A DNA stretch of 64,000 bases from a phage: the NCBI GenBank assembly GCA_014435945.1, contig GCA_014435945.1_4088.1. One strand, written 5' to 3'. Below, piece after piece: positions 19,322-19,560 of the stretch; the first letter of the stretch is position 1; every line of letters begins with the position of its first letter. The notes under the pieces were generated by a model. It had not been told where the DNA came from. It was given only the letters and a program-made list of their open reading frames with translations, and made no database searches. The position numbers and the translations under genes were made by a program.

Positions 19322-19481
19322 AATCGTTTAACCGGATAGCTTCTAGTCGGTACTGAATTCCTCCTTTTGTCTAGAAGCTATCACTCTTTTAAAGTATAAT
19401 GATATCACCCTCATGGATCATTATATTCGTTACCCTCTAACAGTATCTTTTTTATTCCTCTTTGATACTGTATTTTAGAAG

Positions 19482-19512
19482 TTGACATTTTTACTTCTAC
19501 TGTGTTATACTT
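19482..19512 (+). promoter_or_regulatory. sigma70-like promoter
   Basis: TTGACA, about 17 bp, TTATAC/TATACT. Confidence 0.45.
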
Positions 19513-19514
19513 AA

Positions 19515-19543
19515 GGCTGATTCATTATGAATCGGCCTTTTTT
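19515..19543 (+). promoter_or_regulatory. leader hairpin plus U-run (possible attenuator)
   Basis: Near-perfect palindrome GGCTGATTCAT-T-ATGAATCGGCC followed by TTTTTT, between promoter and start codon. Confidence 0.4.
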
Positions 19544-19560
19544 CTTGTGGGGATTAATGT

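What the first reader, a model, noticed from the sequence alone, without database searches (positions are those of the whole stretch)
19322..19560. Complex leader with a long inverted repeat, promoter and palindrome plus U-run before gene 19561
The intergenic region has a 12-bp inverted repeat (GATAGCTTCTAG ... CTAGAAGCTATC) and a TTGACA promoter (19482). It is followed by a near-perfect palindrome GGCTGATTCAT-T-ATGAATCGGCC with TTTTTT (19515..19543) placed between the promoter and the start codon. A terminator-like structure inside a leader suggests attenuation or antitermination control. Similar leader hairpins follow promoters at 32765..32816 and 47553..47573.
Basis: seen in the sequence. 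Interest (0 to 1): 0.45.

Follow-up and report, generated by a model that had tools for sequence, protein, structure and literature searches.

The report
Overlapping promoter-terminator cassette in jumbo phage
This spacer in a giant E. coli phage (Asteriusvirus) most likely ends one transcription unit with a terminator hairpin and starts the next from a host-type promoter on almost the same bases, a compact design already described in T4-like phages, so it is probably not an attenuator.

Summary
The window is an Asteriusvirus (PBECO4/121Q-like jumbo coliphage).

The -10 hexamer ends at 19511 and the terminator stem begins at 19513. A sigma70 start site (about 19518-19520) therefore falls inside the 5' arm. 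RNA made from this promoter keeps only a 6-7 bp A/U-rich stem (-4.7 versus -15.7 kcal/mol), set 4-5 nt from the U-tract, so it should not self-terminate. The full hairpin forms only in transcripts arriving from the upstream tRNA/small-ORF unit.

This is a composite terminator/promoter of the PeSL type (promoter-early stem-loop, T4-like phages). One published PeSL subclass has the stem just after the -10.

Supporting evidence:
- The window has 33 near-consensus sigma70 promoters on the + strand and none on the - strand.
- Seven of 15 strong + strand terminators overlap a promoter.
- The cassette is conserved in 36 related phage records.
- It sits where identity to relatives falls from over 90% to about 45%.

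Attenuation is not supported. The two "similar" sites are ordinary 5'-UTR hairpins.

Side observation: the palindrome AGTACT/CAGTACTG is 7-57-fold over-represented across this phage clade.

The parts
19037..19321 (+). Upstream gene (94 aa, PHROG 30132, unknown function). It is the last gene of the upstream transcription unit.
   Evidence: ORF list. PHROG match and no Pfam match. The gene is absent from JNE01 and Turkey5, although the spacer is kept there.
19311..19322 (.). 12-bp palindrome TTCAGTACTGAA spanning the stop codon. It is one copy of the genome-wide enriched CAGTACTG word.
   Evidence: It is retained in JNE01 even though the upstream gene is missing there.
19335..19382 (+). HP1: 12-bp stem with a 24-nt loop. 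The loop carries a second (degenerate) CAGTACTG copy at 19349-19356 and UUCCUCCUU.
   Evidence: -18.1 kcal/mol, z -4.3. All 55 stem cells pair in 5 variants, with 1 compensatory A-U to G-C change and 2 U.G wobbles that pair only in + strand RNA. Deleted in ph0011.
19393..19427 (+). HP1b: A/U-rich hairpin (ATAATGAT / ATCATTAT).
   Evidence: I7; -8.7 kcal/mol, z -4.0.
19440..19471 (+). HP2: 8-bp stem with a C/U-rich loop, followed by AUUUU. Possibly a weak upstream terminator or a structural element.
   Evidence: I15; -8.0 kcal/mol, z -7.7. A hairpin is predicted at the same place in all seven variants (weak and interrupted in ph0011), and in A4 and JNE01 it is built from an unrelated sequence.
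19476..19499 (+). HP3: inverted repeat that encloses the -35 hexamer (TAGAAGT ... ACTTCTA).
   Evidence: TTGA of the -35 pairs with a downstream TCAA in A4 and JNE01. This is the same position as the stem of the repeated PeSL-like cassettes.
19482..19487 (+). -35 hexamer TTGACA.
   Evidence: It reads TTGAC(A/T) in 6 of 8 sequences; UE-S1 has TTGCAT and ph0011 has TTGATT.
19503..19511 (+). Extended -10: TG-T-TATACT.
   Evidence: GTTATACTTA is invariant in the 7 aligned variants, while the spacer sequence varies and its length stays 17-18 nt.
19518..19520 (+). Predicted transcription start, inside the 5' arm of the terminator stem. Inferred, not measured.
   Evidence: Inference from the sigma70 rule that +1 lies about 7-9 nt after the -10 hexamer and prefers a purine after a pyrimidine (established knowledge).
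19513..19543 (+). Intrinsic terminator: stem-loop 19513-19539 plus the U-tract up to 19543. It acts on + strand transcripts only.
   Evidence: -15.7 kcal/mol, z -7.2. 98.7% of stem cells pair in 7 variants, with 1 compensatory U-A to A-U change and a hypervariable loop. Annotated as a terminator in G17 and UE-S1.
19549..19564 (+). Shine-Dalgarno GGGGA (19549-19553) and ATG start (19562-19564) of the downstream gene.
19562..19978 (+). First gene of the downstream unit (138 aa, PHROG 35192, unknown function). The unit runs to the bidirectional terminator at 23403-23429.
   Evidence: It is only 44% identical in amino acids to its G17/121Q counterpart, while the upstream genes are 92-97% identical.

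Best explanation
The spacer is a composite terminator/promoter cassette of the PeSL type.

Transcripts arriving from the upstream + strand unit (tRNA genes and small ORFs, driven by promoters such as 15229, 15641, 16400 and 17486) run through a structured, C-rich and G-poor 3' UTR (HP1, HP1b, HP2, HP3). They are released at the strong intrinsic terminator 19513-19543.

Host RNA polymerase with sigma70 also binds the extended -10 promoter (TTGACA-N18-TGnTATACT) that lies immediately in front of that terminator. It starts at about 19518-19520, inside the 5' arm of the stem. These new transcripts cannot form the G+C-rich base of the hairpin. They escape termination and express the next block of ten small genes, 19562-23388.

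The short residual stem at the extreme 5' end may additionally stabilise the mRNA.

Because the cassette is conserved while its flanks are not, it also behaves as a junction at which divergent gene modules are joined.

What is shown: the sequence elements, their conservation, the geometry, the strand-specific excess of promoters, the overlap of terminators with promoters, and the identity breakpoint. What is inferred: promoter activity, the start-site position, termination efficiency, and recombination at the cassette.
For: 1. Geometry. The -10 hexamer ends at 19511 and the stem starts at 19513. RNA starting at 19518 or 19519 folds to only -4.7 kcal/mol with a 6-7 bp A/U-rich stem, and 4-5 unpaired nt separate it from U6. 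The full hairpin is -15.7 to -16.2 kcal/mol.

2. The promoter is credible. It scores 11/12 with a TG extension. The window has 33 matches of 11/12 or better on the + strand, 0 on the - strand, and 3.2 expected. GTTATACTTA is invariant across 7 variants, while the spacer sequence varies at a constant 17-18 nt. Related Rak2-like phages depend on host RNA polymerase and use TTGAC/TATAAT promoters, concentrated in regions of short unknown ORFs (PMC7318152; PMC5259590).

3. The terminator is credible. z is -7.2 against shuffles. The stem is kept by one compensatory and one wobble-to-Watson-Crick change, and the loop is hypervariable. It was predicted independently as a terminator in G17 (ARNOLD) and UE-S1. 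No other strong + strand terminator lies between 10195 and 19513, and the next is at 23403.

4. The design recurs in this genome. Seven of 15 strong + strand terminators overlap a promoter scoring 10/12 or better. Six of them are the repeated cassette AAAAGGGTTGACTTCGGTCAGCCCTTTT-TGCTATAAT.

5. [quoted passage not shown] The KVP40/nt-1 stem consensus is A3-4G3-loop-C3T3-4 (PMC4122927).

6. It is a mosaic boundary. Nucleotide identity to G17 is 84-99% over 18880-19520 and 41-62% over 19600-19840. Identity to A4 also drops there. Amino-acid identity is 92-97% upstream and 44% for the first downstream gene. JNE01 and Turkey5 lack the upstream gene but keep the cassette.
Against: - No transcript ends have been mapped for any Asteriusvirus, as far as I could find. 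The start site and termination are predictions.
- Covariation statistics are weak because only 5-7 distinct variants exist: 73/500 and 105/500 shuffles reach the observed scores.
- The cassette is single-copy. Apart from the promoter hexamers, it shares no sequence with the repeated PeSL-like cassettes, so recombination between copies, the defining PeSL behaviour, is not shown here.
- Upstream polymerases still traverse the promoter before terminating, so the arrangement does not prevent promoter occlusion.
- The explanation does not account for the conserved 190-nt multi-hairpin, CCUC-rich 3' UTR.
Confidence: 0.7

Rival explanations
1. Leader attenuator or antiterminator. Transcription from the 19482 promoter includes the whole hairpin and stops at the U-tract unless a phage or host factor, or an alternative fold, prevents it.
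For: A strong hairpin plus U6 lies between the -10 and the start codon. If initiation occurred unusually close to the -10 (at 19515, which keeps the GGC base of the stem), the stem would retain -14.4 kcal/mol; starting at 19516 it keeps -10.7 kcal/mol.
Against: - Starts 4-5 nt after the -10 are atypical for sigma70.
- At the modal positions the stem is gutted.
- There is no upstream leader sequence in which an antiterminator or leader peptide could reside.
- No Rfam leader or riboswitch matched.
- Six other terminator/promoter composites in the window place the terminator before the start site, which indicates the purpose is to stop upstream transcripts.
Confidence: 0.08
2. The main role of the hairpin for the downstream unit is as a 5'-terminal stem-loop that protects the mRNA from 5'-end-dependent decay. 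Termination of upstream transcripts is secondary.
For: With a start at 19519, the RNA begins directly with a base-paired G (GAUUCAU-U-AUGAAUC). Other promoters of this phage are followed by 5'-proximal hairpins without U-tracts, at 47553-47573 and 32765-32816. Protection of mRNA by 5' stem-loops is established knowledge (for example ompA).
Against: The residual stem is weak (-4.7 kcal/mol). Conservation and the compensatory change cover the whole 11-bp stem and the U-tract, including the parts that would be absent from such an RNA. This role is compatible with the best explanation rather than an alternative to it.
Confidence: 0.1
3. The spacer 19322-19545 encodes a structured non-coding RNA. 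It would be a 3'-UTR-derived or processed sRNA with C/U-rich (CCUC) loops and a terminator 3' end, and it would act in trans, for example on Shine-Dalgarno sequences. The embedded promoter would be a separate overlay.
For: - Four or five independently folding hairpins persist across variants even where the sequence is replaced (A4, JNE01).
- G.U wobbles are compatible only with + strand RNA.
- CCUC occurs 4 times in 191 nt, against 44 in the whole + strand (about 0.13 expected), and C:G is 19:8 in 19383-19475.
- The strong terminator is typical of sRNA 3' ends.
- Small ORFs annotated here in other genomes are inconsistent and frame-broken.
Against: - ph0011 has lost HP1 and HP1b entirely.
- No own promoter of good quality lies upstream of HP1.
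- No Rfam family matched.
- Complementarity to the downstream translation-initiation region is no better than shuffled controls, with z from -1.0 to +1.1.
- The C-rich, G-poor stretch could equally be a Rho-loading region.
Confidence: 0.1
4. Chance juxtaposition: an ordinary terminator with a fortuitous promoter-like sequence and fortuitous inverted repeats, with no coupled function.
For: At a loose threshold (9/12 or better), promoter-like sites are no more frequent than in shuffles (57 versus 59.6).
Against: At 11/12 or better there are 33 + strand sites, 0 - strand sites and 3.2 expected. The TGnTATACT element is invariant across variants that differ elsewhere. The repeated terminator/promoter overlap in the same genome also argues against chance.
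Confidence: 0.02

Closest known systems
PeSL (promoter-early stem-loop) composite promoter/terminator cassettes of T4-like phages RB49/phi1, T4/PST and KVP40/nt-1 (Arbiol et al. 2010, PMC2839356; Comeau et al. 2014, PMC4122927)
   Same: - An intergenic cassette lying between a stop codon and the next SD/ATG.
- A near-consensus sigma70 early promoter physically overlapping a stable stem-loop that terminates upstream transcription.
- It lies in a region of small unknown ORFs.
- It coincides with boundaries of indels or replacements between related phages.
- One published subclass has the stem just downstream of the -10.
- Other cassettes in this window (AAAAGGG..CCCTTTT, with -35 in the stem) match the classic geometry and the KVP40/nt-1 stem consensus.
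   Different: - The host phage is an Asteriusvirus (Rak2-like jumbo phage), only distantly related to the T4-likes.
- This cassette is single-copy and is not sequence-similar to the other cassettes in the genome.
- Recombination between copies and mini-circle formation are not shown.
- It is preceded by an unusually long, structured, CCUC-rich 3' UTR, which the PeSL descriptions I read do not mention.
Ordinary rho-independent terminator at the end of an operon, followed by the next operon's promoter
   Same: A G+C-rich stem of 11-12 bp, a short loop and U6. It acts on one strand only.
   Different: Here the next promoter lies upstream of the terminator rather than downstream, so the start site falls within the stem.
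Transcription attenuators and terminator-containing leaders (trp, pyrBI, T-box, riboswitch expression platforms)
   Same: A terminator hairpin and U-tract lie between a promoter and a start codon.
   Different: There is no leader upstream of the hairpin, no alternative antiterminator fold, no leader peptide and no aptamer. The predicted transcript lacks the base of the 5' arm.
Promoter/terminator coupling in bacteria (bioRxiv 10.64898/2026.08.19.745784, 'Widespread coupling of promoters and terminators of transcription in bacteria'). I saw only the title and the start of the abstract.
   Same: The idea that initiation and termination sites of adjacent units are physically coupled.
   Different: The text could not be read, so no detailed comparison was possible.

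Membership tests
PeSL composite promoter/terminator cassette | Sigma70-like early promoter (-35 and -10 at 16-18 nt spacing) | tested here: met
   TTGACA-N18-TATACT with a TG extension scores 11/12. It is conserved in 7 variants. Promoter activity itself was not measured.
PeSL composite promoter/terminator cassette | Stable stem-loop overlapping or abutting the promoter (five positional subclasses, including just downstream of the -10) | tested here: met
   The stem 19513-19539 starts 2 nt after the -10 and has -15.7 kcal/mol. A second weak stem (HP3) encloses the -35. The subclass definition is in PMC2839356 section 14.
PeSL composite promoter/terminator cassette | The stem-loop works as a terminator or attenuator for upstream transcription | not testable with these tools
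   Sequence features of an intrinsic terminator are present (U6, G+C base), and it is annotated as such in G17 and UE-S1. No transcript data were found.
PeSL composite promoter/terminator cassette | Intergenic position: upstream stop codon, then the cassette, then the SD and ATG of the next gene, within a region of small ORFans | tested here: met
   All eight flanking proteins match only PHROGs of unknown function and have no Pfam match.
PeSL composite promoter/terminator cassette | Member of a repeated motif family within the genome | tested here: inconclusive
   The window holds seven terminator/promoter composites, six of them one repeated sequence family. This cassette shares only the promoter hexamers with them, and no other copy was found by self-BLAST.
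PeSL composite promoter/terminator cassette | Association with indel or replacement boundaries between related phages | tested here: met
   Identity to G17 falls from 84-99% to 41-62% across 19520-19600, and it falls similarly against A4. Amino-acid identity is 92-97% upstream and 44% downstream. The upstream gene is absent in JNE01 and Turkey5 while the cassette is retained.
PeSL composite promoter/terminator cassette | Recombination between cassettes (mini-circles, chimeric cassettes) | not testable with these tools
   Needs inverse PCR or long-read data from infected cells.
PeSL composite promoter/terminator cassette | Host genome is a T4-like myovirus | tested here: not met
   The taxonomy in the records is Caudoviricetes; Asteriusvirus. 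Rak2-like phages are only distantly linked to T4-likes in gene-sharing networks (PMC7318152). I therefore call it PeSL-like, not a member of the described sets.
Transcription attenuator / riboswitch leader | The terminator hairpin is fully contained in the transcript from the regulated promoter | tested here: not met
   The predicted +1 (19518-19520) lies inside the 5' arm, leaving a residual stem of -4.7 kcal/mol. This is a prediction, not a measurement.
Transcription attenuator / riboswitch leader | Alternative antiterminator structure, leader peptide or ligand or tRNA-binding domain upstream of the terminator | tested here: not met
   No transcribed sequence lies upstream of the stem. There is no Rfam cis-regulatory match at E<=1, only a chance-level sRNA hit at E=0.2.

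The most novel reading that the evidence does not exclude
The conserved 190-nt 3' UTR is not mere spacer. On this reading it is a functional RNA or DNA element, whose features are a series of hairpins kept through sequence turnover, CCUC/CCUCC motifs displayed in loops, and two copies of the clade-wide enriched palindrome CAGTACTG. One possibility is a processed regulatory RNA ending at the terminator. Another is a binding platform for the as yet unknown factor that recognises AGTACT/CAGTACTG throughout Rak2-like genomes, which would tie global DNA-word recognition to control of this promoter/terminator junction.
Probability: 0.12. Interest if true: 0.6.

Novelty: new member of a known kind. 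Interest (0 to 1): 0.27.

Why it matters
If the reading is right, jumbo Rak2-like coliphages organise their dense early regions with the same overlapping terminator/promoter modules described in T4-like phages. That would extend the PeSL concept to a distant lineage.

It also gives annotators a rule: a terminator directly after a -10 belongs to the upstream unit, not to a leader.

The start-site-inside-the-stem geometry is a compact way to make one hairpin stop incoming transcripts but spare outgoing ones. That could be useful as a synthetic insulator part.

It does not open a new regulatory principle.

Tried and rejected
- **Rfam.** A scan of 14000-24000 at E<=1 found only tRNAs and a chance-level suhB/mmgR hit (E=0.2) over 19477-19552.
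- **More homologues.** The IMG/VR protein-anchored scan returned only 121Q itself. A DNA-pattern scan of IMG/VR and of metagenomes returned mostly chance matches. After filtering for the full hairpin, only one metagenome contig remained, identical to G17. Covariation therefore rests on 5-7 variants.
- **Other copies in the window.** Self-BLAST of the spacer found none.
- **Small ORFs in the spacer.** G17_00168, 121Q gene 145 and a minus-strand CDS in SD-1_S14 are inconsistent between genomes and broken by homopolymer indels, so I rejected them as coding.
- **Anti-SD pairing.** Pairing of the CCUC-rich UTR with the downstream ribosome-binding site is no better than shuffles, with z from -1.0 to +1.1.
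- **Own promoter for a spacer RNA.** TATAAT at 19396 lacks a -35 and is not conserved in JNE01 or ph0011, so this is not supported.
- **Transcript maps.** The literature search for Asteriusvirus transcript maps found none.
- **AGTACT/CAGTACTG literature.** The search found nothing relevant.
- **Preprint on promoter-terminator coupling.** It could not be opened.

Full report
**What the window is.** The region 18000-21000 matches 37 phage records, all Escherichia or Salmonella jumbo phages of the genus Asteriusvirus (PBECO4, 121Q, G17 and others). The best matches are Turkey3 and TH47 at 98%. The neighbourhood is a + strand array of tRNA genes and small ORFs. These ORFs match only PHROGs of unknown function and no Pfam family.

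**Observation.**
- The 12/12 inverted repeat lies at 19335-19346 and 19371-19382.
- The promoter is TTGACA (19482), N18, TATACT (19506-19511), with a TG extension.
- The near-perfect palindrome 19513-19539 is followed by T6.
- The downstream gene starts at ATG 19562, not 19561.

None of this is chance. The hairpins are far more stable than shuffles (HP1 z -4.3, terminator z -7.2). The window has 33 sigma70 matches of 11/12 or better on the + strand, none on the - strand, and 3.2 expected per strand. The whole spacer is single-copy and conserved in 36 related genomes.

**Anatomy.** Comparing eight sequences (window, CMSTMSU, G17, 121Q, UE-S1, ph0011, A4 and JNE01/Turkey5) and folding seven of them gives the following modules.
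- TTCAGTACTGAA, spanning the stop codon of the upstream gene.
- HP1, the 12-bp stem. Its 24-nt loop carries a second CAGTACTG copy and UUCCUCCUU.
- HP1b, an A/U-rich hairpin.
- A C-rich, G-poor linker.
- HP2, an 8-11 bp stem with a C/U-rich loop, followed by AUUUU.
- HP3, an inverted repeat that encloses the -35 hexamer.
- The invariant TGTTATACTTA (extended -10).
- The terminator stem GGCUGAUUC/GAAUCGGCC with U5-6.
- The SD and ATG of the downstream gene.

Stem pairing is maintained across variants.
- *Terminator:* 98.7% of cells pair. JNE01 has one compensatory U-A to A-U change, ph0011 has one U.G to U-A change, and the loop is hypervariable.
- *HP1:* 100% of cells pair. A4 has one compensatory A-U to G-C change, and two U.G wobbles pair only in + strand RNA.
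- *HP2 and HP3:* they are built from unrelated sequences in A4 and JNE01 but still fold.

With so few variants the shuffle statistics are weak (73/500 and 105/500).

**The key point is geometry.** The -10 hexamer ends at 19511 and the stem starts at 19513. Under the established sigma70 rule, +1 lies about 7-9 nt after the -10 and prefers a purine after a pyrimidine. That places the start at 19518-19520, most likely G19519. RNA starting there lacks AAGGC(U). It folds to -4.7 kcal/mol, with 6-7 A/U-rich pairs separated from the U-tract by 4-5 nt. The complete hairpin is -15.7 to -16.2 kcal/mol.

A hairpin that does not reach the U-tract is not an intrinsic terminator. The promoter's own transcripts should therefore escape, and only transcripts from upstream form the full structure. 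No other strong + strand terminator lies between 10195 and 19513, and the next is the bidirectional one at 23403-23429. The element therefore separates the tRNA/small-ORF unit from the ten-gene unit 19562-23388.

**The design recurs in this genome.** Of 15 strong + strand terminators in the window, seven overlap a promoter scoring 10/12 or better. Six of these (38457, 42832, 45059, 49355, 49938, 51385) are one repeated cassette, AAAAGGGTTGACTTCGGTCAGCCCTTTT-TGCTATAAT. In it the -35 is the 5' arm of the terminator stem and the -10 follows the U-tract. The 19.5-kb cassette is the only one with the promoter first. Its weak HP3 stem, in which the -35 TTGA pairs with a downstream TCAA in relatives, occupies the same position as the stem of the repeated cassettes.

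**Comparison with what is known.** PeSLs (promoter-early stem-loops) of T4-like phages are defined as strong sigma70-like promoters combined with stem-loops that terminate upstream transcription. They lie between a stop codon and the next SD, and are concentrated in hyperplastic regions of ORFans.
- The KVP40/nt-1 stem consensus is A3-4G3-loop-C3T3-4 (PMC4122927), which is what the repeated cassette here looks like.
- Rak2-like phages depend on host RNA polymerase and use TTGAC/TATAAT promoters (PA5oct, PMC7318152). In phage CBB these promoters cluster in regions of short unknown ORFs thought to be early (PMC5259590).
- The hairpin is already annotated as a terminator in G17 (ARNOLD) and UE-S1.

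**Mosaic boundary.**
- *Against G17:* nucleotide identity is 84-99% from 18880 to 19520. It drops to 41-62% from 19600 to 19840 and recovers after about 20640.
- *Against A4:* identity drops at the same place and stays low.
- *Protein level:* the two upstream genes are 92-97% identical to G17/121Q. The first three downstream genes are 44%, 56-57% and about 65% identical, and the fourth is 95%.
- *JNE01 and Turkey5:* they lack the 94-aa upstream gene but keep the entire spacer, including TTCAGTACTG.

This is the behaviour reported for PeSLs. However, this cassette is single-copy and is not sequence-similar to the other cassettes, so exchange between copies is not demonstrated. The phage is also not a T4-like myovirus. 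I therefore call it PeSL-like: it works like a PeSL, but it is not a member of the described sets.

Attenuation or antitermination would need the whole hairpin in the promoter's transcript, plus some upstream leader to modulate it. Neither is present. There is no transcribed sequence before the stem, no alternative fold, no leader peptide and no Rfam cis-regulatory match.

The two sites cited as similar differ in geometry. At 32725 and 47516 the consensus promoters carry CAGTACTG in the spacer. They are followed by hairpins that begin 5-7 nt after the predicted start and have no stem-adjacent U-tract. These are 5'-UTR stem-loops.

**What remains unexplained.** The 190-nt structured 3' UTR is more elaborate than a terminator needs.
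- CCUC occurs four times in it, against 44 on the whole + strand, mostly in loops.
- C:G is 19:8 in 19383-19475.
- It is not complementary to the downstream ribosome-binding site beyond chance.
- It has no good promoter of its own.
- It is partly deleted in ph0011.

It could be a Rho-loading region, a set of weak back-up terminators or 3' stabilisers, or a processed RNA. I give the RNA-gene reading about 0.1.

**Side observation.** The palindrome CAGTACTG, two copies of which lie in the spacer, occurs 37 times in the window against about 1 expected. Its core AGTACT occurs 178 times against 22 expected. It appears in all three reading frames, on both coding strands and in intergenic DNA. The same excess is seen elsewhere.
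- In another 50 kb of 121Q: 133 versus 17.
- In 50 kb of Klebsiella phage RaK2, a different genus: 119 versus 17.

In both it is by far the most over-represented palindromic hexamer. Sites are conserved somewhat more than random 6-mers, 14/19 versus 45%. I found no description of this in the held literature.

**Verdict.** The interpretation as an attenuator is not supported. The best explanation is a PeSL-like overlapping terminator/promoter junction (confidence about 0.7), which is a new member of a known kind and of modest interest.

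Noticed in passing
whole window (e.g. 19313, 15243, 32739, 47530); L141 (121Q 200000-249999); L142 (RaK2 1-50000): The palindrome AGTACT occurs 178 times against 22 expected, and CAGTACTG 37 times against about 1. It appears in all three reading frames, on both coding strands and in intergenic DNA. The same 7-8-fold excess is found in a different part of 121Q and in Klebsiella phage RaK2, a different genus, while many other palindromic hexamers are absent. This suggests a clade-wide DNA word recognised by some phage factor. No description was found in the literature searched.
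   Followed up: partly
window 38457-38491, 42832-42864, 45059-45095, 49355-49391, 49938-49974, 51385-51421 (variants at 30335, 44411): A repeated cassette of about 40 nt, AAAAGGGTTGACTTCGGTCAGCCCTTTT-TGCTATAAT. It is an intrinsic terminator whose 5' arm is the -35 hexamer and whose U-tract lies in the promoter spacer. This is the classic PeSL geometry, and it matches the KVP40/nt-1 stem consensus.
   Followed up: partly
whole window: There are 33 sigma70 consensus matches of 11/12 or better on the + strand, none on the - strand, and about 3 expected per strand. That is roughly one strong promoter per 2 kb, co-oriented with the genes.
   Followed up: yes
window 15229-15256, 15641-15669, 16400-16428, 32725-32752, 47516-47543: A promoter sub-family with CAGTACTG filling the 3' half of the spacer, directly abutting the -10 (TTGACn-N8-CAGTACTG-(A)TATAAT). 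Three copies precede the tRNA cluster. Two have a conserved initial transcribed sequence, GTTTAT(AT)CAA(A)GGG, followed by 5'-UTR hairpins at 32765-32816 and 47553-47573.
   Followed up: partly
window 56623-56641, 57831-57850, 63786-63804 (- strand); 54732-54758: A family of minus-strand terminators, GCCAGTACT-loop-AGTACTGGC followed by TTTTCTTTT. There is also a bidirectional hairpin, AATCCAGTACTAT..ATAGTACTGGATT. All are built around the enriched AGTACT word.
   Followed up: no
window 16439-16530, 16538-16627, 17805-18038: ARAGORN calls a 92-nt tRNA-Ser with the unusual anticodon ACT and a 90-nt 'tRNA-Met'; UE-S1 annotates a 75-nt tRNA-Met there. tRNA-Thr(TGT) is present in three tandem copies here, against one in G17 and 121Q and two in JNE01.
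   Followed up: no
L004 (phage A4) 1640-1760: Phage A4 carries an insertion of about 100 nt in the same spacer. It adds a further 9-10 bp hairpin (TCTCTCCAG..CTGGAGAGA) and a TGTATAATG -10-like element.
   Followed up: no
window 18055-18480, 18473-18832, 19987-20391 (and weakly 19562-19978): Paralogous small genes (PHROG 17453 and relatives, with a shared C-terminal motif such as GLTxE(D/E)IN) lie on both sides of the cassette. The downstream copies are the most divergent between phages.
   Followed up: partly
window 19322-19512: The 3' UTR is C-rich and G-poor (C:G 19:8 in 19383-19475). It has four CCUC motifs, largely in hairpin loops or linkers. Their function is unknown, and pairing with the downstream ribosome-binding site is no better than chance.
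   Followed up: partly
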